DNA from: an uncultured Actinomycetes bacterium
Lineage (GTDB): Bacteria; Actinomycetota; Thermoleophilia; Gaiellales; JAICJC01
Reading direction: 5' to 3'
NCBI GenBank assembly: GCA_963843705.1
Contig: CAWJLQ010000006.1
Span: 9,843-73,842 of the forward strand
DNA length: 64,000 nt
Made by a program: the position numbers and the translations under genes. Positions 46,115 through 54,050 of this stretch are shown here, one piece after another. The notes beneath the pieces are model-generated. The model saw nothing but the letters and a program-made list of their open reading frames with translations. It did no database searches and was not told the DNA's origin. Positions within the stretch are counted from its first letter, which is position 1. Every line of letters starts with the position of its first letter.

Positions 46115-47287
46115 CTAGGCCCGCGCGCCCGGCCCGTAGGCGAGGCGCAGCAGGCGGCCCTCGGCGAAGCGCCCGGGGCGCAGCTCGGAGACGTCGACGG
46201 GGGGTGTGCGGCCGGTGATCTCGGCCGCCACCACCTCGCCGACGGCGGGAGAGAGCTTGAAGCCGTGGCCGCTCCAGCCGACGGCCAGGTAGAGGCCCTC
46301 GATACCGGGGCACGGGCCGAGGATCGGATTCCAGTCGGGCGTGATGTCGTACGGCCCGGCGAACGCGCGCTCGACCCGGAACTCGGCCAGGCCCGGATAG
46401 CGCTCGGCGAGGCCGCGGCGCACGACCTCGTCGTAGCCCGGCGAGGCGGCGTGGTCGCAGTCGTCGGCGCGGGCGAGGGCGTCCTCGCCGGCATAGGCGA
46501 CGGCGCAGAAGCGGCGGCCGCGGTCGGGCCGCACGACGACGTTCGACACGGCGTCCGAGCAGACGGCCGACGGCAGCGTCTGGCCCGGCTCGCGGCAGGC
46601 CACGAGCACCTGCAGGCGGCGCAGCTCGATCGGCTGCTCCGCGCCGACGGGCCGCAGCAGGTCGTTCGCCCACGCGCCGGTGGCGAGGACGACGGTGCCC
46701 GCCGCGGTGAACCCGGCGTCGGTCTCGACGCCCGTCACCCGGCCGGCCTCGACGCGCAGGGCGCGCACGCCGCAGCCGAGCCGGTGGTGCAGGCCGCGCG
46801 AGCACGCGGCCGTGAACCATCCCAGGCACATCTTCTGGGCGTCGGCGAAGCCGCCGTCCGGCTCGTAGGCGGCGCCGGCGACGCCGTCGAGCGACAGCGC
46901 CGGCTCCACGTCGCCGATCTCGTCCGGTTGGAGGAACCGCGTCTCCAGGCCCAGCCGGCGGAGGCGATCGACGTTGTCGCGGCAGGCCGCCTCCAGCCGC
47001 TCGGGCACGGTCAGCAGGTAGCCGCAGCGCACGTAGCCGGAGTCGGCGACGCCGACCTCGTTCTCCCAGTCGGCGATGGTGCGTGTCCCGGCGATCGCGA
47101 GGCGGGCGGTGACCGCGTTCGAGTAGTGGCGGCGCACCATCGAGAAGGAGCGGCCGGAGTCGCCCGAGCCGGGCCAGGCGCTGTCGAACAGGGCGATGCC
47201 CCGGTGGCCGTCGCGCGTGAGCGCGTGGGCCGTCGCGAGGCCGTTGATCCCCGCGCCGACGATGACGATCTCGGCGGAGTCGATCAC
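46115..47287 (-). CDS. FAD-dependent oxidoreductase (DAO family; sarcosine/glycine/D-amino-acid oxidase-like)
   Basis: Dinucleotide fold EIVIVGAGINGLATAHAL and a DAO-type body. GTG 47287 is chosen. The 43-codon upstream extension would collide with the divergent BMC operon start. There is no clear SD sequence. Confidence 0.85.
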   Translation of the reverse strand: MIDSAEIVIVGAGINGLATAHALTRDGHRGIALFDSAWPGSGDSGRSFSMVRRHYSNAVTARLAIAGTRTIADWENEVGVADSGYVRCGYLLTVPERLEAACRDNVDRLRRLGLETRFLQPDEIGDVEPALSLDGVAGAAYEPDGGFADAQKMCLGWFTAACSRGLHHRLGCGVRALRVEAGRVTGVETDAGFTAAGTVVLATGAWANDLLRPVGAEQPIELRRLQVLVACREPGQTLPSAVCSDAVSNVVVRPDRGRRFCAVAYAGEDALARADDCDHAASPGYDEVVRRGLAERYPGLAEFRVERAFAGPYDITPDWNPILGPCPGIEGLYLAVGWSGHGFKLSPAVGEVVAAEITGRTPPVDVSELRPGRFAEGRLLRLAYGPGARA

Positions 47288-47308
47288 GGACGCAACGCTA
47301 CACGGAGA

Positions 47309-47338
47309 GGGCCTGGCCTCGCACGCGGGGCCAGGCCC
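47309..47338. other. GC-rich hairpin in the divergent control region
   Basis: GGGCCTGGCC (47309-47318) and GGCCAGGCCC (47329-47338) form a perfect 10-bp stem with a 10-nt loop. The arm sequence recurs in the 33-nt palindrome at 50947-50979. Confidence 0.7.
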
Positions 47339-47351
47339 CGCTGCTCGGGTC

Positions 47352-47395
47352 GGACCAATAGCTGGTATTTGCTTTTTGGTCTGGTATTCGGTACG
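47352..47395. promoter_or_regulatory. AT-rich candidate promoter/operator of the BMC operon
   Basis: CTGGTATT occurs twice (47362-47369 and 47381-47388), and ACCA-N5-TGGT lies at 47354-47366. This is the only AT-rich patch in the 127-bp divergent region and sits 20-60 nt upstream of ATG 47415. Confidence 0.4.
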
Positions 47396-47414
47396 TTCCG
47401 CGGCGATCGCGCGC

Positions 47415-48710
47415 ATGTACGACTACGGCTTCTTCTCCTACGAGTCCAAGGACGACTTCCTCGACCGGTCGCGGGAGTTCTGGAATCCCGACAAGACCGA
47501 CTTCTGGCAGGAGGCCGGCGTCGACCTCGTCATCGACCGGCGCGAGGGCTACTTCTTCTGGGACATGGCCGGCCGTCGGCTGGTCGACCTGCACCTGAAC
47601 GGCGGCACGTACAACCTCGGCCACCGCAATCCGGAGCTGATCGCCACGCTCGAGCAGGCGATGCAGCGCTTCGACATCGGCAACCACCACTTCCCGGCGC
47701 TCGCCCGCACCGCGCTGGCCGAGGCGCTGGTGAAGACCTGTCCGCCGAACATGCGCCGCGTCGTCTACGGCGCCGGCGGCGGCGAGGCGACCGACATCGC
47801 CATCAAGACCGCCCGCCACACCCGCAAGCGGCGCAAGATCGTCTCGATCCTGAAGGGCTACCACGGCCACACCGGCCTCGCCGTCGCGAGCGGCGACGAC
47901 CGCTTCTCGAAGCTCTTCCTGTCCGACCGCCCGGACGAGTTCGTGCAGGTGCCGTTCAACGACGTGGACGCGATGGAGGGCGCACTGCGCGAGGGCGACG
48001 TGGCCGCCGTCCTGCTCGAGACGATCCCCGCCACCTACGGCTTCCCGCTGCCGGAGCCCGGCTACCTGCAGGCGGTGAAGCGCCTGTGCGAGCGATTCGG
48101 CGCGCTCTACATCGCCGACGAGGTGCAGACCGGCCTCATGCGCACGGGGGAGATGTGGGGGATCGCGAAGGCGGGCATCGAGCCGGACATCATGGTGATC
48201 GGCAAGGGCATCACCGGCGGCATGTACCCGATCTCGTGCGTGGTCGTCTCCGAGGAGTGCTCGGCGTGGCTGAAGGAGGACGGCTTCGGCCACATCTCGA
48301 CGGGCGGCGGCGCCGAGCTCGGCTGCATCGTCGCGCTCAAGGTGCTCGAGATCTGCGGCCGGCCGGAGGTGCGCTCGATGGTGCACTACATCGCCGACCG
48401 GTTCGGCCGCGGGCTGCGCGCGATCCAGGAGCTCTACCCGGACTGGTTCGTCGGCATCCGCCAGGACGGCGTCGTCATGGGGCTCGAGTTCGACCACCCG
48501 CAGGGCGCAAAGATCGTCATGAAGCACCTGTACGAGAACGGCGTCTGGGCGATCTTCTCGACGCTCGACCCGCGCGTGCTCCAGTTCAAGCCCGGCATCC
48601 TGCTCGGCCCCGAGCTGGTCGACGAGGTGCTCGACCGCACCGAGGTCTCGATCGGCCAGGCGCTGCAGGAGCTGCGCGGCGGGCGCGCGGCGGTGGGGGC
48701 GGCGCGGTGA
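47415..48710 (+). CDS. Class-III PLP aminotransferase-fold enzyme (candidate amino-alcohol O-phosphate phospho-lyase of the BMC pathway)
   Basis: Aminotransferase class III pattern: LNGGTYNLGHRNPE, YGAGGGEATDIAIK, LYIADEVQTGLMRTG, and the PLP lysine in MVIGKGITGG. It is the first gene of the BMC operon. Confidence 0.88.
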   Translation: MYDYGFFSYESKDDFLDRSREFWNPDKTDFWQEAGVDLVIDRREGYFFWDMAGRRLVDLHLNGGTYNLGHRNPELIATLEQAMQRFDIGNHHFPALARTALAEALVKTCPPNMRRVVYGAGGGEATDIAIKTARHTRKRRKIVSILKGYHGHTGLAVASGDDRFSKLFLSDRPDEFVQVPFNDVDAMEGALREGDVAAVLLETIPATYGFPLPEPGYLQAVKRLCERFGALYIADEVQTGLMRTGEMWGIAKAGIEPDIMVIGKGITGGMYPISCVVVSEECSAWLKEDGFGHISTGGGAELGCIVALKVLEICGRPEVRSMVHYIADRFGRGLRAIQELYPDWFVGIRQDGVVMGLEFDHPQGAKIVMKHLYENGVWAIFSTLDPRVLQFKPGILLGPELVDEVLDRTEVSIGQALQELRGGRAAVGAAR

Positions 48711-50212
48711 GCGCGGTCGCCGCCGAGCCGGCCGGCGTCCCCCGCGCCCGCATGATGCTCCAGCGCGCCCACTGGGCGGCGACGGCCTTTGCCGCGTACG
48801 ACCGCGAGCGCACGCACCGGATCGTCGAGGCGGTGGCCGAGGAGGCGCACCGCAACGCCCTGCGCTACGCCGAATGGGCGGTCAAGGAGACGGGCATGGG
48901 CGTCGTCGAGCACAAGCGGCGCAAGAACGAGGCGTGCTCGAAGGGCCTGCTCGAATGGTACGGCGGCCGCGACTACGTGAGCGCCCGGATCGACCCCGAC
49001 GCGAAGATCGTCGAGCTGCCCCGGCCCGCCGGCGTCGTGCTGGCGCTGACGCCGTCGACGAACCCGATCGCCACCGTGTACTTCAAGGTGCTGCTGGCGC
49101 TCATGACCCGAAACGCCGTCGTCGTCAGCCCGCACCCGCTGGCCCGCGAGGTGTCGGCCGATGCCGCCCACCATCTCGCCCGGGCCGCGGTCGAGGCCGG
49201 CGCGCCCGACGGCTGCGTGCAGGTCGTCGAGGAGCCGACGATCCCGCTGATCGAGGCGCTCATGGGCGACCCGACCACCGACGTGATCCTGGCGACGGGC
49301 GGCGTCGCCGTCGTCCGCGCCGCGTACCGCTCCGGGAACCCGGCCATCGGCGTCGGCCCCGGCAACGTGCCGTGCCTGGTCGACCACACCGCCGACCTGG
49401 GCGCGGCCGCCGAGCGGCTGATGGACTCGAAGAGCTTCGACAACTCCATCCTGTGCACGAACGAGTCGTGCGCGATCGTCGAGGAGCGCTGCGCGGCCGC
49501 GTTCGAGCGCGAGCTCGGCCGCCACGGCGGCCATGTGCTCTCGGAGGACGAGGTGGCGATCGTGCGCGAGAAGCTCTTCCCGGAGGGCCGGATGCGGCTC
49601 GACATGATCGGCAAGGACGGCCCGGCGCTGGCCGCCGAGGCCGGGCTCCGCGTCCCGCCGAAGACGCGCGTGCTGGTCGCGCCGTTCGCGCTGGTCGTGC
49701 CGGAGGAGCCGCTGGCGCGCGAGAAGATGTTCCCGCTGCTCGGCCTCGTGCGGGTGCCGGACGCGCGCCGCGGCATCGACGCCGCCTGCGCCATGCTGCG
49801 CATCGGCGGCGCCGGCCACTCGGCCGTGATCCACTCGCGCGACCCGCGCACGATCATGGCCTATGGGGCCGCGGTCAAGGTGCTGCGGGTGGCGGTGAAC
49901 GTCGGCGGCAGCACCGGCTCGGCGGGGCTCGACACGAATCTCGCCCCGACGATGACCATCGGCACCGGCTTCTACGGCCGCTCGTCGCTGGGCGAGAACC
50001 TGGAGCCGCGCCACCTGATCAACCTGACCCGGGTCGCCTATACCTCCGACCCGTCCGAGCCGTTCGGCGACTTCACCGGCCTGGAGCCGTGGACGGCGTC
50101 GCCCGAGCCCGTGCCGGTCGCCGCACCGGCGCTGTCGGCCGAGGCGAGCGACGCCCGCGAGGAGATCCGCCGGATCGTCCTCGAGGAGCTCCGTGAGCTG
50201 GTGAGGAGGTAG
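48707..50212 (+). CDS. CoA-acylating aldehyde dehydrogenase (PduP/EutE-like) with C-terminal encapsulation-peptide-like helix
   Basis: Motifs LTPSTNPIATV, GVGPGNVP and the catalytic Cys in FDNSILCTNESC. A Pro-rich linker precedes the amphipathic tail REEIRRIVLEELRELVRR (about 50156-50209). GTGA overlap with the upstream stop. Confidence 0.9.
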   Translation: MSAVAAEPAGVPRARMMLQRAHWAATAFAAYDRERTHRIVEAVAEEAHRNALRYAEWAVKETGMGVVEHKRRKNEACSKGLLEWYGGRDYVSARIDPDAKIVELPRPAGVVLALTPSTNPIATVYFKVLLALMTRNAVVVSPHPLAREVSADAAHHLARAAVEAGAPDGCVQVVEEPTIPLIEALMGDPTTDVILATGGVAVVRAAYRSGNPAIGVGPGNVPCLVDHTADLGAAAERLMDSKSFDNSILCTNESCAIVEERCAAAFERELGRHGGHVLSEDEVAIVREKLFPEGRMRLDMIGKDGPALAAEAGLRVPPKTRVLVAPFALVVPEEPLAREKMFPLLGLVRVPDARRGIDAACAMLRIGGAGHSAVIHSRDPRTIMAYGAAVKVLRVAVNVGGSTGSAGLDTNLAPTMTIGTGFYGRSSLGENLEPRHLINLTRVAYTSDPSEPFGDFTGLEPWTASPEPVPVAAPALSAEASDAREEIRRIVLEELRELVRR

Positions 50213-50215
50213 GCC

Positions 50216-50821
50216 GTGGCCGAGCTGCGCTCCTTCATCTTCCTCGACCAGCTGCAGCCCCAGACCATGTGCTACCTGGGCACGTGGATCCGCGGCCGGC
50301 TTCCGCGCACGAACATGGCCGCGCAGATCATCGAGATCGCGCCCGGCCTCGACATCGAGCCGCTGACCGACGTCGCCCTCAAGTCGACCGAGGTGCAGGC
50401 CGGGATCCTGGTGGTCGAGCGCCAGTTCGGCTACCTCGAGATCCACTCCCGCTCGACGGCGGAGGTGCACGCCGCCTCGAGCGCCGTGCTCGAGGCGCTC
50501 GGCGCGACCGCCGCGGATGCGATGCAGCCGCAGATCCTGGCGTCCGAGATGATCACGAACCTCGACCACCAGCACGCGTTCCTGATCAACCGCAACAAGC
50601 TGGGCTCGATGGCGCTGCCCGGCGAGTCGCTGTTCGTGCTCGAGATGCAGCCCGCGTCGTACGCGATCCTGGCCACGAACGAGGCGGAGAAGGCGGCCCG
50701 GATCAAGGTGGTCGACTACCGCATGATCGGCGCCACCGGCCGCGTCTACCTGGCCGGCATGGAGGCCGACGTGCGCACGGCCGGCGACGCCGCCGTGGCG
50801 GCGCTCGGAGGTGCGGTGTGA
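50216..50821 (+). CDS. BMC-T shell protein (tandem BMC domains), copy 1
   Basis: Two PF00936-like halves: IIEIAPGLDIEPLTDVALKSTEVQAGILVVERQFGYLEIHS and LFVLEMQPASYAILATNEAEKAARIKVVDYRMIGATGRVYLAG. GTG follows GAGGAGG. Confidence 0.85.
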   Translation: MAELRSFIFLDQLQPQTMCYLGTWIRGRLPRTNMAAQIIEIAPGLDIEPLTDVALKSTEVQAGILVVERQFGYLEIHSRSTAEVHAASSAVLEALGATAADAMQPQILASEMITNLDHQHAFLINRNKLGSMALPGESLFVLEMQPASYAILATNEAEKAARIKVVDYRMIGATGRVYLAGMEADVRTAGDAAVAALGGAV

Positions 50822-51462
50822 GCACGCCCGACGACGCCGACCAGCTGCGCAGCGTCACCCGCGAGGTGCTGGCGGAGCTCCTGCCGGGCCTGCTCGAGGA
50901 GGCGCTCACCGCGCAGCCGGCGACCAACGGCAACGGCAACGGCGGTGGGGCCAGGCCCCAACCGTTGGGGCCTGGCCCCGCTTCTGCGCCGCCAGAGGCC
51001 GTCGCCCGCGTGCCGGCGCCGCCGGTGGCGGCAGTCCACCGCCCGCCCGGCTGGCGGCCTCCGCCCGAGTCCGACACGACGCCCGCGCCAATTGGCGCTG
51101 CCGGGGTGCGCCAATTGGCGGCCGCGGCCGACGTCGAGGTGGTCGACCTGCGCAGCGACGCCGACCTGGACGCGTTCGTGCGCACGCTCGTGCGCCGGTT
51201 CGAGAACCCGCGCGACCGCATGGCGATCCGCTCGGGCAAGGTGCGCTTCCGGCTCGGCGCAACGGCTTCAGGCTCCGCCGCCGCCCCTGCGCCGGCCGTC
51301 GTCATGCGGATCGAGAAGGGCGCGGTGACCGAGCGCACCGTGCGCGACGCGGCCGCGGCCGGCGCCCGGCTCGTGCTCGCGCCGAAGGCGGTGCTGACGC
51401 CGATGGCGCGCGACCGCGCCCGCAGCCTGGGAGTCGAGATCGAGAAGGAGCGGCCATGCTGA
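50818..51462 (+). CDS. BMC-locus protein of unknown function (N-terminal amphipathic helix, low-complexity linker, small C-terminal domain)
   Basis: It has a GTGA start overlap and an ATGCTGA end overlap with the flanking shell genes. The N-terminus is DQLRSVTREVLAELLPGLLEEAL, followed by an NGNGNG/Pro-rich linker. The C-terminal domain ends AVLTPMARDRARSLGVEIEKE. Confidence 0.75.
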   Translation: MSTPDDADQLRSVTREVLAELLPGLLEEALTAQPATNGNGNGGGARPQPLGPGPASAPPEAVARVPAPPVAAVHRPPGWRPPPESDTTPAPIGAAGVRQLAAAADVEVVDLRSDADLDAFVRTLVRRFENPRDRMAIRSGKVRFRLGATASGSAAAPAPAVVMRIEKGAVTERTVRDAAAAGARLVLAPKAVLTPMARDRARSLGVEIEKERPC

Positions 51463-51698
51463 GAGCGACCGTGACCGGCGCAGTCTGGGCGACCAAGCGG
51501 ATCGAGCACATCCCGAGCGGCGCCTTCCTCGAGGTCGAGGCGGAGGGCGGCGGCCGGCTGGTGGCCTTCGACGTGCTCGGAAGCGGCGTGGGCGAGCGCG
51601 TCCTGATCGCCACCGGCTCCGTCGCCTCGGGGTGGTTCGGCGACGAGCATCCGCCGATCGACGCACTCATCATCGGATCCATCGACGAACGCGAATAA
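51456..51698 (+). CDS. BMC-P pentameric vertex protein (EutN/CcmL family)
   Basis: 80 aa: MLRATVTGAVWATKRIEHIPSGAFLEVE...VAFDVLGSGVGERVLIATGSVAS...IDALIIGSID. Confidence 0.9.
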   Translation: MLRATVTGAVWATKRIEHIPSGAFLEVEAEGGGRLVAFDVLGSGVGERVLIATGSVASGWFGDEHPPIDALIIGSIDERE

Positions 51699-51707
51699 GG
51701 AGGAGTC

Positions 51708-51992
51708 ATGGCGCAGAACGCAATCGGGATGATCGAGACCAAGGGCTACGTGGCGGCGCTGGCGGCCGCGGACGCGATGGTCAAGGCGGCGAACGTCACC
51801 ATCCTCGCCCGCGAGGAGGTCGGCGACGGGCTGGTGTCGGTCGTCATCCAGGGCGACGTCGGCGCGGTCAAGGCCGCGACGGAGGCGGGCGCAGAGACGG
51901 CCTCGAGCGTCGGCGAGCTGGTCTCCGTGCACGTGATCCCGCGGCCGCACGCGGAGCTCGACAAGCACTTCGTCCACGCCGTCACGGCGTAG
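51708..51992 (+). CDS. BMC-H hexameric shell protein (PduA/EutM/CcmK-like)
   Basis: 94 aa: [61 protein letters not shown] is a canonical PF00936 domain. Confidence 0.95.
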
Positions 51993-51995
51993 CGC

Positions 51996-52643
51996 GTGGC
52001 CGGGCCCGACACCGCGGTGCAGCTGCGGGTCTACCTGCCGATCGCCAACCTGGGCCGGCAGTTCGCCGCCTACCTGGGCACGCCCACGCGCGCCCGCGGC
52101 TACCCGGCGGTTCAGGGCGACCATGCGCTGATCGTCGAGGTGGCGCCGGCGCTCGCGATCGAGCGCGTCACCGATCTCGCGCTGCGGTCGGTGCCCGAGA
52201 TCGAGCCCGGCATCCTCTACGTCGAGCGCCAGTTCGGCGTGCTCGAGGTGCACCACCGCGACCAGGCGCTGGTCGACCGGGCCGGCCAGGCCATCCTCGC
52301 CGGCATCGGGGCGACGCCCGCGGACGCCCTGCGTCCGCGTATCCTCTACGCCGACGTGATCGAGGACATCACCGACCAGCACGCGGTGATCATCAACCGC
52401 AACCGCGAGGCGTCGATGGTGCTGCCGGGCGAGACGCTGCTCGTCTACGAGGTGGTGCCGGCGCTGCACGCCGCCGTCGCGGCGAACGCGGCCGAGCGGG
52501 CGGCGCCCGAGGCGACCCTGGTCACGGTGTCGATGATCGGCGCGGCCGGGCGCATCTACCTCGCCGGCGCGACCGAGAGCGTCGTGCGGGCACGGGACGA
52601 GATCACGCGGGTGCTCGAGGCGGTGGAGGGCCGTGAGCACTGA
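51996..52643 (+). CDS. BMC-T shell protein (tandem BMC domains), copy 2
   Basis: Paralogous to copy 1: LIVEVAPALAIERVTDLALRSVPEIEPGILYVERQFGVLEVHH and LLVYEVVPALHAAVAANAAERAAPEATLVTVSMIGAAGRIYLAG. Confidence 0.85.
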   Translation: MAGPDTAVQLRVYLPIANLGRQFAAYLGTPTRARGYPAVQGDHALIVEVAPALAIERVTDLALRSVPEIEPGILYVERQFGVLEVHHRDQALVDRAGQAILAGIGATPADALRPRILYADVIEDITDQHAVIINRNREASMVLPGETLLVYEVVPALHAAVAANAAERAAPEATLVTVSMIGAAGRIYLAGATESVVRARDEITRVLEAVEGREH

Positions 52644-53619
52644 TCAGGCGGCGATCGACCGCCTGGCCGCCGCCGCCATCGGAAGCTACGACCTCGACCC
52701 GTCGTCCTCCGTGGGCTTGATCAACGTCTCCGAGAACTGGACCTACCGGGTGCAGGAGCCCGACGGGCGTGCCTTCGCCCTGCGCGTGCACCGGCCGACG
52801 TACCACACCGCGGAGGAGATCGCCTCGGAGCTCGACTGGATCGACGCGCTGCGCGACGACCGCGTCGTCGAGACCGCCCACGCCGTCGCCGGGCGCGCCG
52901 GCGGCCGCGTCTGCCAGGTGCGCACCGACGACCTGGGCGAGCGCAACGTCGTCCTCTTCGAGTGGCTCGACGGCGAGATGCCCGACGCCGACGCCCACGA
53001 CCTGCTGCCCGGGTTCCGCACGCTGGGCGCGGTCTCGGCGCGGATGCACGGCCATGCCCGCGCCTGGACACCGCCGGCGGGGTTCGCGCGGTTCCGGTGG
53101 GACTACGACACCACCCTGGGCGCACACGGCCACTGGGGCCGCTGGCAGGACGGGCTCGGCATGGGCCCGTCCCAGCTCGACCTGCTCGGACGGCTCGACG
53201 CGACGTTGCGGCAGCGGCTCGAGGCGTATGGCCAGGGACACGAGCGCTTCGGCCTCATCCACGCCGACATCCGGCTCGCGAACCTGCTCGTCGCCGGCGA
53301 GCACGTGCGCGTGATCGACTTCGACGACTGCGGCTGGTCGTGGTTCATGTACGACTTCGCGACCACCGTGTCGTTCATCGAGGACCACCCGGACGTCCCC
53401 CGGCTGAAGCAGGCCTGGATCGAGGGCTACCGCTCGGTCGCCGGCCTTGACCCGGCCGACGAGGCCGAGCTGGACACGTTCGTGATGCTGCGGCGGCTGC
53501 TGCTCGTGGCCTGGATCGGCTCGCACCACCTGTTCGCGACCGAGGCGGCCGAGCTCGGCGCCGGCTTCACCGAGGGCACGTGCGCGCTGGCCGAGACGTA
53601 CCTGGCCACGCACGCCTGA
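52633..53619 (+). CDS. APH-fold (aminoglycoside phosphotransferase family) kinase, candidate amino-alcohol kinase
   Basis: Catalytic loop LIHADIRLANLLV and metal-binding VIDFDDCG. GTG overlaps the BMC-T2 end by 11 nt. Confidence 0.88.
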   Translation: MSTDQAAIDRLAAAAIGSYDLDPSSSVGLINVSENWTYRVQEPDGRAFALRVHRPTYHTAEEIASELDWIDALRDDRVVETAHAVAGRAGGRVCQVRTDDLGERNVVLFEWLDGEMPDADAHDLLPGFRTLGAVSARMHGHARAWTPPAGFARFRWDYDTTLGAHGHWGRWQDGLGMGPSQLDLLGRLDATLRQRLEAYGQGHERFGLIHADIRLANLLVAGEHVRVIDFDDCGWSWFMYDFATTVSFIEDHPDVPRLKQAWIEGYRSVAGLDPADEAELDTFVMLRRLLLVAWIGSHHLFATEAAELGAGFTEGTCALAETYLATHA

Positions 53620-53624
53620 ACGGG

Positions 53625-53990
53625 CTACTTGATGTTGACGACGAGCCGCAGCCGGCCCGAGCGCGGCACGTGGATCGTCCGCGGAACGGGTTGGATCGGC
53701 CGCCCGTCCGCCTGCGGGCCGCCCGAGGTGATCGTCACCCGGTACGTGCCGGGCGCCAGCTCGATCGCAAAGCGCCCGGCCGTGCCGGTGCGCACGGCGG
53801 CCGAGCCGTCCGTGCCGGTGAACCGCAGGTGGACGCCCCCGAGCAGGACTGGCCCCGCCGGGCGCGGGGCCGCCGACGCGCACGAGCTGGCCATGCGTCC
53901 GGACGAGGTGGTGAGCCGACCCGCCGCCGCATCCGGACACGAGGAGCGCAGACCATCACGGCCGCTGCGCGGAACCAATTCATGTCGCAT
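53625..53990 (-). CDS. Small carboxypeptidase-regulatory-like beta-sandwich domain protein
   Basis: The C-terminal 75 aa (VHLRFTGTDGSAAVRTGTAGRFAIELAPGTYRVTITSGG...IHVPRSGRLRLVVNIK) fit the CarboxypepD_reg/Big-like pattern. The N-terminus and start (ATG 53990 or the internal ATG) are uncertain, and no clear signal peptide is seen. Confidence 0.5.
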   Translation of the reverse strand: MRHELVPRSGRDGLRSSCPDAAAGRLTTSSGRMASSCASAAPRPAGPVLLGGVHLRFTGTDGSAAVRTGTAGRFAIELAPGTYRVTITSGGPQADGRPIQPVPRTIHVPRSGRLRLVVNIK

Positions 53991-54050
53991 TGGACCGTAG
54001 AATGGGCCGCCCAGTTCCACCATCGCCATCGATCGCACGAGGAGGAGCAG

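What the first reader, a model, noticed from the sequence alone, without database searches (positions are those of the whole stretch)
50947..50979. Perfect 33-nt GC-rich palindrome inside the coding sequence of the BMC unknown gene
GGGGCCAGGCCCCAAC-C-GTTGGGGCCTGGCCCC has 16 of 16 arm positions complementary around a single central base; I checked it base by base. It encodes part of the low-complexity linker (GGARPQPLGPGPA), where the protein sequence is probably weakly constrained. As RNA it would form a very stable hairpin in the middle of the operon. Upstream of it lie the PLP enzyme, the ALDH and BMC-T1. Downstream lie BMC-P, BMC-H, BMC-T2 and the kinase. It could therefore act as an intra-operon attenuator, a processing or stability site, or a ribosome pause that sets shell-to-cargo stoichiometry. 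The same arm sequence (GGCCAGGCCC / GGGCCTGGCC) forms the 10-bp hairpin at 47309-47338 in the control region of the same operon. That suggests a reused, REP-like module rather than chance.
Basis: seen in the sequence. Interest (0 to 1): 0.62.

Follow-up and report, generated by a model that had tools for sequence, protein, structure and literature searches.

The report
Mobile palindromic repeat inside a gene
The perfect 33-base palindrome is one in-frame copy of a small palindromic repeat present about 350 times in this soil actinobacterium and tied to a dedicated transposase-like gene; it sits in a floppy protein linker that tolerates it, a known kind of event rather than a purpose-built operon switch.

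Summary
Window 50947-50979 is a perfect 16+1+16 palindrome, in frame in a 214-aa protein of the microcompartment operon.

It is a doublet of a 13-mer, GGGGCCWGGCCCC. That 13-mer occurs 348 times in this 4.2-Mb genome (a reversed control pattern occurs once). About 89% of copies are intergenic, mostly as hairpin doublets at gene 3' ends.

The genome's only Y1/HUH transposase gene (RAYT-like) is flanked by the same 13-mers. That is the signature of a REP/RAYT system.

Relatives in the same uncultured Thermoleophilia genus carry a doublet at the same codon position. The doublet is either the CC form or a second form, GGGGACWGTCCCC, which also flanks the RAYT genes of the genomes where that form dominates. 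Arms differ by 0-1 bases or by exactly 4, whatever the divergence of the flanks. Five relatives that keep the operon have no doublet.

Similar in-frame doublets lie in AddA-like helicase, TrpF, PrmA and QueA genes.

The "REP-like module" idea is therefore supported. The operon-specific attenuator or stoichiometry idea is untested and weakened.

The parts
50947..50959 (.). REP unit, A-form (GGGGCCAGGCCCC); left arm of the doublet
   Evidence: one of 191 exact A-form copies in the genome
50960..50966 (.). 7-nt spacer AACCGTT, itself palindromic (it extends the stem to 16 bp); orthologues have a 4-nt spacer (AACC, ACCC, ATCC or ATGC)
50967..50979 (.). REP unit, T-form (GGGGCCTGGCCCC); right arm
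   Evidence: one of 157 exact T-form copies
50980..50986 (.). GCTTCTG flank; GCTT is the second commonest flank 4-mer next to REP units elsewhere in the genome (GCTTCTC/GCTTCTG seen in the copy listing)
   Evidence: 3' 4-mer GCTT in 25 units; conserved next to the doublet in orthologues
50818..51462 (+). Host gene: 214-aa microcompartment-operon protein. It has an N-terminal helix (aa 4-31), a disordered linker (aa 32-105; the REP encodes aa 44-54) and a C-terminal alpha/beta domain (aa 106-210) of unknown family
   Evidence: no Pfam, NCBIfam or PDB-fold match
47308..47339 (.). Second REP doublet (T-form with 2 mismatches, 6-nt spacer, exact A-form) in the 127-bp divergent control region between the FAD oxidoreductase gene and the operon
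   Evidence: the orthologous position holds other REP variants in L049 and L050 and nothing in G003, G004 or G019

Best explanation
The palindrome is a REP doublet, two inverted 13-nt units. It belongs to a genus-wide family of repetitive palindromes associated with a RAYT-type (HUH/Y1) transposase. A copy became fixed, in frame, in the DNA that encodes the disordered linker between the N-terminal helix and the C-terminal domain of a microcompartment-operon protein.

It is tolerated for three reasons. The unit has no stop codon in any of the six frames. It encodes only Gly/Pro/Ala/Arg-type linker residues (GARP, GPGP, RGLAP). The insert length is a multiple of three.

Its perfect arms are kept by the dynamics of the repeat family, not by the protein. 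The copy is repeatedly reset to one of the discrete family variants (CC or AC). The mechanism is inferred to be gene conversion with other copies, or re-insertion at the resident REP mediated by RAYT. As mRNA it should form a very stable hairpin that ribosomes must unwind. Any effect on operon expression is a side effect, not shown and not needed to explain its presence.

Shown here: family membership, the RAYT link, the in-frame position in a disordered linker, the state of the orthologous site, and variant switching. Inferred: the mobilisation and homogenisation mechanism, and neutrality.
For: - Copy number: 348 exact copies against 1 for the reversed control pattern. 310 are intergenic although about 88% of the genome is coding.
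- Location of the 164 clusters: 69 in convergent gaps, 58 tandem, 10 divergent.
- Arrangement: doublets dominate, with 99 T>A pairs and 34 A>T pairs.
- RAYT link: the single PF01797 gene (C3:397475-398035) has an HUH-like NHYHL motif and a candidate catalytic Tyr in IRYIAANP, and is flanked by the same units. It matches NF047646 'REP-associated tyrosine transposase' at E = 3.6e-21.
- RAYT flanks in relatives: in 9 relatives the syntenic RAYT is flanked by REP units, AACC-[A-form] 5' and [T-form]-GGTT 3' where both flanks were recovered. The variant (CC or AC) is the one that dominates that genome in 8 of them; G013 has a hybrid unit.
- Orthologous site: a doublet is intact or nearly so (0-1 arm mismatch) in 9 of 15 genus genomes including G000, one more (G001) is half-decayed, and 5 have none. 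It is always A-form then T-form, CC in 4 genomes and AC in 6.
- Switching: G010 (CC) and G017 (AC) are sister taxa at 100/100 support. Arm differences are 0-1 or exactly 4, independent of 6-15% flank divergence.
- Linker: distant orthologues lack the whole linker segment. AlphaFold2 gives pLDDT below 50 at residues 33-56.
- Other genes: in-frame doublets occur in AddA/UvrD-PDDEXK, TrpF, PrmA and QueA with Pfam domains on both sides. The QueA copy is shared by 5 species.
Against: - No transposition, cleavage or gene conversion was observed; the mechanism is by analogy with Proteobacterial REP/RAYT systems.
- The units lack the GTAG or CGTC tag of the described REP super-families.
- The RAYT scores 75.6 bits, just under the NCBIfam equivalog cut-off of 80.
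- Relatives have 2-6 RAYT paralogues rather than one.
- Long retention of perfect arms at one coding site in many species could equally reflect selection for the hairpin.
- No expression data are available.
- G009 and G001 carry the variant that is the minority in their genomes.
Confidence: 0.8

Rival explanations
1. The hairpin is a selected RNA element of this operon. It could be a translation-coupled attenuator, an exonuclease barrier or processing site, or a ribosome pause. It would uncouple the upstream cargo genes (PLP enzyme, ALDH, BMC-T1) from the downstream shell genes and kinase. A REP copy was co-opted for the job.
For: The predicted hairpin is very stable. The hairpin is kept at the same site in about 10 species while the encoded peptide changes completely. 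Arms evolve more slowly than the flanking coding DNA within a variant: 0 differences where 2.5-3.7 are expected at the flank rate. REP clusters of this family concentrate downstream of genes, about 10% of convergent gaps against 2% of tandem gaps. That fits a terminator or mRNA-stabiliser capacity, as described for E. coli REPs (literature: PMC3733652).
Against: The same kind of doublet lies in frame in unrelated single genes where no stoichiometry is at stake. It is conserved there in the same way (QueA). Five genus members with an intact operon lack it or have let it decay, and distant orthologues lack the whole segment. There is no U-tract and no Rfam match. Discrete CC/AC switching between sister species is what family homogenisation predicts, not stepwise compensatory evolution. 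No RNA data are available.
Confidence: 0.13
2. The 13-mers are double-stranded DNA binding sites for a dimeric protein. That protein could be a regulator of the locus, a nucleoid protein or a topoisomerase target. The promoter-region copy and the intragenic copy would act together on the operon.
For: Each arm is itself a 6+1+6 palindrome, as expected for a dimer site. Centre-to-centre spacing is 19-20 bp at both sites in the window. Positions 5 and 9 co-vary within a single 13-mer (CC to AC, also GGTGCCWGGCACC), which keeps the intra-unit symmetry. E. coli REP/BIME elements bind gyrase and IHF (literature cited in PMC3733652).
Against: There are about 350 sites, mostly at gene 3' ends, so any such protein is global and not a regulator of this operon. 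The promoter copy differs in variant and orientation between species and is absent in G003, G004 and G019. The neighbouring AT-rich element, by contrast, is conserved in all of them, so it is the better operator candidate.
Confidence: 0.05
3. Chance, or a by-product of low-complexity Gly/Pro coding sequence in a 73% G+C genome.
For: Gly, Pro and Ala codons are G+C-rich and can give short palindromes.
Against: The reversed control pattern occurs once against 348 copies. Shuffles give 0.51 hits against 6 observed in the window. Identical units occur mostly outside genes.
Confidence: 0.01

Closest known systems
REP / REPIN-RAYT systems (E. coli, Pseudomonas, Stenotrophomonas; Nunvar 2010 PMC2817692; Bertels & Rainey 2011 PMC3116915)
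   Same: Short G+C-rich palindromic units in hundreds of copies, mainly extragenic and downstream of genes, arranged as inverted doublets and arrays. An HUH/Y1 transposase gene, single in this genome, is flanked by two units in opposite orientation. The variant that flanks the RAYT is the one amplified in the genome. Palindromy is preserved by paired changes.
   Different: The host is an uncultured Thermoleophilia (Actinomycetota) genus. The unit is a 13-mer that is itself a palindrome. There is no GTAG head. The RAYT falls just below the NCBIfam equivalog cut-off, and relatives hold several paralogues. A notable share of copies lies in frame inside genes.
Intragenic REPs (Di Nocera et al. 2013, PMC3733652)
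   Same: That paper reports REPs lying entirely within ORFs of known proteins, many in replication and repair genes, and judges them tolerated rather than functional. Here one in-frame copy lies in an AddA/UvrD-type helicase-nuclease.
   Different: Neither the GTAG nor the CGTC tag is present. Here the orthologous coding site can be followed through about 15 species, with discrete variant replacement.
Rickettsia palindromic elements (RPE; recalled from Ogata et al. 2000, not read here)
   Same: Palindromic mobile repeats inserted in frame into protein-coding genes, adding a peptide segment in a permissive, surface or linker position.
   Different: From memory, RPEs are about 100-150 bp, A+T-rich, and have no known dedicated transposase. 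Here the insert is 30-33 bp and linked to a RAYT.
U-tract-less G+C-rich hairpin terminators of high-G+C actinobacteria
   Same: A stable G+C-rich hairpin without a U tail. The family is enriched between convergent genes.
   Different: This copy is inside a translated ORF in mid-operon. Sequence identity across hundreds of loci shows common descent, not convergent terminator design.

Membership tests
REP (repetitive extragenic palindrome) | Short (about 20-40 nt) palindromic unit able to form a stem-loop | tested here: met
   13-nt units paired as 30-33-nt doublets; folds
REP (repetitive extragenic palindrome) | High copy number of near-identical units in one genome | tested here: met
   348 exact copies plus 24 one-mismatch copies, against 1 for the reversed control
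REP (repetitive extragenic palindrome) | Predominantly extragenic, downstream of genes | tested here: met
   310 of 348 copies lie outside my GC3-based gene calls, which cover 88% of the genome. Clusters: 69 convergent, 58 tandem, 10 divergent. The gene calls are my own crude ones.
REP (repetitive extragenic palindrome) | Clustered in alternating orientation (BIME-like) | tested here: met
   164 clusters; patterns TA, TATATATATA, TTATATATATATA and others
GTAG- or CGTC-tagged REP super-families | Unpaired GTAG or CGTC tetranucleotide at one end of the unit | tested here: not met
   GTAG lies near 14 of 348 units and CGTC near 45 of 348. The conserved flank is only C at -1 and G or A at +1, often AACC...GGTT.
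RAYT (REP-associated tyrosine transposase) | Y1/HUH transposase fold with an HUH motif and a catalytic Tyr | tested here: met
   PF01797 at 48.7 bits, above its cut-off. NHYHL and IRYIAANP motifs are read from the translation. The catalytic role of these residues is inferred.
RAYT (REP-associated tyrosine transposase) | Reaches the curated NCBIfam equivalog score (NF047646) | tested here: not met
   75.6 bits against a cut-off of 80, E = 3.6e-21. No PDB sequence match.
RAYT (REP-associated tyrosine transposase) | [quoted passage not shown] | tested here: met
   G000 and 9 relatives. CC flanks occur in CC-rich genomes and AC flanks in AC-rich genomes (8 of 9 relatives); G013 has a hybrid unit.
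RAYT (REP-associated tyrosine transposase) | Single copy per genome, vertically inherited | tested here: inconclusive
   One copy in G000. The locus is syntenic in relatives: the same downstream gene end appears. Relatives hold 2-6 homologues.
RAYT (REP-associated tyrosine transposase) | Binds and cleaves its cognate REP as single-stranded DNA | not testable with these tools
   Needs biochemistry.
Intrinsic terminator / attenuator | Hairpin followed by a U-tract, or a demonstrated transcript 3' end | tested here: not met
   No terminator-like site in 47000-54000. Transcript ends could not be examined.

The most novel reading that the evidence does not exclude
Resident REP copies in this genus are overwritten in place by whichever REP variant the genome's RAYT currently propagates, even inside coding sequences. 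A protein linker is then recoded wholesale (ARPQPGPGP to DSPHAGTVP) between sister species without moving the site. This would be a homing or gene-conversion activity of a REP/RAYT system that also acts as a generator of linker-peptide diversity. A bolder add-on is that the retained hairpins are exploited as translation-coupled attenuators inside operons.
Probability: 0.3. Interest if true: 0.7.

Novelty: new member of a known kind. Interest (0 to 1): 0.42.

Why it matters
- The finding explains a striking sequence feature without invoking a special regulatory device for the microcompartment operon. It warns against reading operon logic into any one of about 350 identical hairpins.
- It documents a REP/RAYT system in an uncultured soil Thermoleophilia genus. 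In the papers I could search, such systems are described mainly for Proteobacteria and a few other phyla.
- The units are unusual: they are self-palindromic, untagged and stop-free in all six frames, so they can survive inside genes as Gly/Pro-rich linkers.
- The orthologous-site series gives a rare natural experiment on how REP populations are homogenised. It includes CC and AC forms, sister species that differ at all four variant positions, and the RAYT's own flanks switching in the same way.
- For people who study microcompartments, it marks the stretch after the N-terminal helix of this unknown protein as freely replaceable. That supports the reading of helix, flexible tether, then domain.

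Tried and rejected
The relatives are all MAGs, so cultured-strain data are unlikely to exist.
- Rfam search over 47000-52000 at E <= 1: nothing.
- Sigma-70 promoter and U-tract terminator scan over 47000-54000: nothing.
- Identity of the host protein: no Pfam or NCBIfam hit. An AlphaFold2 model was made, but the Foldseek PDB search gave no match at E <= 0.001. The C-terminal domain stays unassigned.
- PDB sequence search with the RAYT: no hit.
- GTAG/CGTC tag test: negative.
- A simple single-insertion, clock-like history of the coding copy is rejected, because arm differences are 0-1 or 4 regardless of flank divergence and G010 and G017 are sisters.
- Several of my 'in CDS' calls are rejected as artefacts of my crude gene caller. 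C3:462867-464741 and C10:229491-232526 have nonsense N-terminal halves.

Full report
**1. The observation**

Window 50947-50979 reads GGGGCCAGGCCCCAAC-C-GTTGGGGCCTGGCCCC, a perfect 16+1+16 palindrome. It lies in the frame of ORF 50818-51462 (+). That ORF starts with a GTGA overlap on the stop of the preceding BMC-domain gene and translates through ...NGNGNGGGARPQPLGPGPASAPP....

Folded as RNA, 50927-50999 gives -52.2 kcal/mol, with z = -4.1 and none of 200 shuffles folding as well.

Pfam confirms the surrounding operon: a class-III aminotransferase-like PLP enzyme, an aldehyde dehydrogenase, a BMC protein, this unknown protein, EutN/CcmL, a BMC-H protein, a 215-aa ORF with no hit, an APH-type kinase and an SDR. 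A divergent DAO-family FAD oxidoreductase lies upstream. From general knowledge this is the RMM/aminoacetone-type microcompartment gene set.

**2. It is a member of a genome-wide repeat family**

- The window's genome is 4.22 Mb in 13 contigs, 72.7% G+C. It contains 348 exact copies of GGGGCCWGGCCCC (191 with central A, 157 with central T). A further 24 copies have one mismatch.
- The same pattern read backwards occurs once.
- I made simple GC3-based gene calls (4050 genes, 88% of the genome). With these, 310 of 348 copies are intergenic.
- The copies form 164 clusters. The commonest arrangement is a T-form followed by an A-form with a 2-15-nt spacer (99 adjacent pairs). A-form followed by T-form is rarer (34 pairs): 11 of these have short spacers like the one in question, and about 12 have a spacer near 39 nt.
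- Clusters sit in 69 convergent, 58 tandem and only 10 divergent gaps. The background is 664, 2710 and 663 gaps respectively, so the family prefers gene 3' ends.
- The oriented unit has only weak extra consensus: C at -1, G or A at +1, and often AACC...GGTT. It has no GTAG or CGTC tag.

**3. It is tied to a RAYT-like gene**

- The genome has one Y1/HUH transposase homologue: PF01797 at 48.7 bits, C3:397475-398035.
- Its translation shows an HUH-type NHYHL motif and a candidate catalytic Tyr in IRYIAANP. It hits NCBIfam NF047646 'REP-associated tyrosine transposase' at E = 3.6e-21, 75.6 bits, just under the equivalog cut-off of 80.
- The gene is preceded by AACC-GGGGCCAGGCCCC-GAACG. It is followed by a T-form/A-form doublet that even supplies its C-terminal residues (...GDGAWPRGSGPGPA*), and then by a third unit.
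- In 9 relatives of the same genus the syntenic homologue is flanked by REP units, A-form 5' and T-form 3' where both flanks were recovered.
- The roughly 39-nt-spacer A>T elements resemble this gene's two ends joined without the gene.
- This is the defining architecture of REP/RAYT systems (PMC2817692, PMC3116915).

**4. A second variant, and what the relatives show**

The search for related loci names the relatives as uncultured Thermoleophilia, Gaiellales or Solirubrobacterales-type MAGs. Within the genus two variants dominate: GGGGCCWGGCCCC (CC) and GGGGACWGTCCCC (AC). The AC form differs at positions 5 and 9, which keeps the internal symmetry.

| Genome | CC copies | AC copies |
|---|---|---|
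| G000 | 348 | 5 |
| G010 | 113 | 31 |
| G006 | 77 | 46 |
| G017 | 46 | 126 |
| G020 | 1 | 110 |
| G021 | 18 | 238 |
| G003 | 61 | 150 |

Other genera of the order have almost none of either.

The RAYT flanks are CC in G000, G014 and G010. They are AC in G017, G021, G003, G004, G019 and G008, and hybrid in G013. So, G013 apart, each genome's RAYT is flanked by its dominant variant.

**5. The orthologous coding site**

Orthologues of the 214-aa protein were found in 14 genus genomes, plus two further MAGs. At the same position, after the NGNG codons, the states are as follows:

- CC doublet: G000, G006, G009 (1 mismatch) and G010 (plus a third unit).
- AC doublet: G017, G021, G013 (plus a CC third unit), G020 (1 mismatch, plus a third unit) and L049.
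- Half-decayed AC doublet: G001.
- One intact AC unit: L050.
- No doublet: G003, G004, G005, G019 and G024.

The order is always A-form then T-form, with a 4-nt spacer. G000 has three extra bases that lengthen the stem to 16 bp and add one Leu codon.

The peptide changes completely (DGARPQPGPGPAS against DGDSPHAGTVPGS) while the arms stay perfect. Distant orthologues at about 47% identity lack the whole segment of roughly 35 residues.

A maximum-likelihood tree of the flanking 1.5 kb (the ALDH 3' end plus BMC-T1) makes G010 (CC) and G017 (AC) sisters at 100/100 support. Arm differences between species are 0-1 or exactly 4, irrespective of 6-15% flank divergence. G010 and G017 have 6.2% flank divergence and 4 arm differences. 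G017 and G021 have 14.1% flank divergence and 0 arm differences.

This is not clock-like change. The copy is reset to discrete family states, by gene conversion, by re-insertion at a resident REP, or by allelic exchange. I cannot tell which.

**6. The promoter-region hairpin**

The segment 47308-47339 is a T>A doublet whose left unit has two mismatches. The orthologous place holds an AC A>T doublet in L050 and a third symmetric variant (GGTGCCTGGCACC...GGTGCCAGGCACC) in L049. It holds nothing in G003, G004 and G019.

An AT-rich element just downstream (...ACCAATA...TTTGCTTTTTGGTCTGGTATTCGGTACGTTCC) is conserved in all of them. That element, not the REP, is the better candidate for operon control.

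**7. The coding location is not special to this operon**

In-frame doublets with Pfam domains on both sides also occur in four other genes:

- an AddA/UvrD-PDDEXK helicase-nuclease (RGLAPEGRGQAP, between the helicase and nuclease domains);
- TrpF (EGPGPAAVSGPGPAEGGARPR);
- PrmA (GAWPRQAGARPH);
- QueA (QGPGPAQAGPGP).

All three reading frames are used: GA(R/W)P, GPGP and RG(L/Q)AP. The unit has no stop codon in any of the six frames, as can be read directly from the sequence.

The QueA copy is present at the same site in G000, G006, G014, G009 and G001. In G006 both central bases are flipped. I did not re-check that locus.

AlphaFold2 on the orthologue alignment gives a helix at residues 4-31, low confidence (pLDDT 40-59 by 10-residue block) over most of 32-105, and a confident alpha/beta domain at 106-210. 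The residues encoded by the REP (44-54) are therefore in a disordered tether.

**8. Interpretation**

The evidence supports a REP doublet that was fixed as an in-frame passenger in a permissive linker and is kept uniform by the dynamics of its family.

A dedicated role in setting shell-to-cargo stoichiometry is not excluded, for two reasons: the hairpin is strong, and the family's 3'-end preference suggests that the units can affect transcripts. However, such a role is not needed to explain the data, and three results weaken it:

- equivalent copies occur in single, unrelated genes;
- five relatives keep the operon without the palindrome;
- there is no terminator-like tail and no Rfam match.

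**9. Comparison with what is known**

Intragenic REPs have been reported before and were judged tolerated rather than functional (PMC3733652). In-frame palindromic elements are classic in Rickettsia (recalled from memory, not read here). The phenomenon is therefore known.

Three things are new here. The host lineage is new: I found no description of REP/RAYT in Actinomycetota in the papers searched, and that is absence of evidence only. The unit is untagged and self-palindromic. The orthologous-site series shows discrete variant replacement, including inside a coding sequence.

Noticed in passing
window 47352-47398: An AT-rich element (ACCAATA...TTTGCTTTTTGGTCTGGTATTCGGTACGTTCC) just upstream of the operon start is conserved almost base for base in G000, L049, L050, G003, G004 and G019. 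The adjacent REP hairpin comes and goes. It is probably the real promoter or operator of the microcompartment operon.
   Followed up: partly
window 51085-51121; also genome C5:731074-731107: Twin GCGCCAATTGGCG(C/G) palindromes lie 23 bp apart in the same linker. GCCAATTGGC occurs only 12 times in the genome, but a second twin with the same 23-bp spacing lies in an intergenic region on contig C5. Single or twin CCAATTGG copies also appear in the orthologous linkers of G009, G020 and G013. This could be a low-copy protein-binding site or a second small repeat.
   Followed up: partly
genome-wide (for example C1:311900-312450 and C1:321900-323000), outside the window: Many T>A doublets are embedded in a longer asymmetric unit...GGTGGAGATGGAGCRGTTT-[doublet]-GGTTGGCGGTGAC..., repeated in tandem arrays with a period of about 78-121 bp. 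The motif GGAGATGGAGC occurs 254 times with up to 1 mismatch. This is a composite, BIME-like or separate element that uses the REP doublet as its core.
   Followed up: partly
relative G010, between the ALDH and BMC-T1 genes (alignment A5, columns about 925-1052): G010 alone has an insert of about 125 bp exactly between the ALDH stop and the BMC-T1 start. It has about 19-bp terminal inverted repeats (GATGGTCGACTCCAGATCC...GGATCTGGAGTCGACCATC) and TAG/TAA at its ends. This is a MITE-like insertion that rebuilds the stop codon, like the MITE family that earlier notes describe in this lineage.
   Followed up: no
genome C3:397997-398035, outside the window: The RAYT-like ORF runs into its own downstream REP doublet, which encodes its last residues (GDGAWPRGSGPGPA) and is followed at once by the stop codon.
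   Followed up: no
relative G020:C6:533050-533544: One RAYT-like copy of G020 is broken into three frame-shifted pieces. That genome holds 110 AC units and only 1 CC unit. This may be a REP population that has outlived its transposase.
   Followed up: no
locus L049 about 1490-1540 (orthologous to window 47308-47339): A third symmetric variant of the unit, GGTGCCWGGCACC, has changes at positions 3 and 11. Earlier notes list GGGGTCAGACCCC as well. The family seems to evolve by paired changes that keep each 13-mer symmetric.
   Followed up: partly
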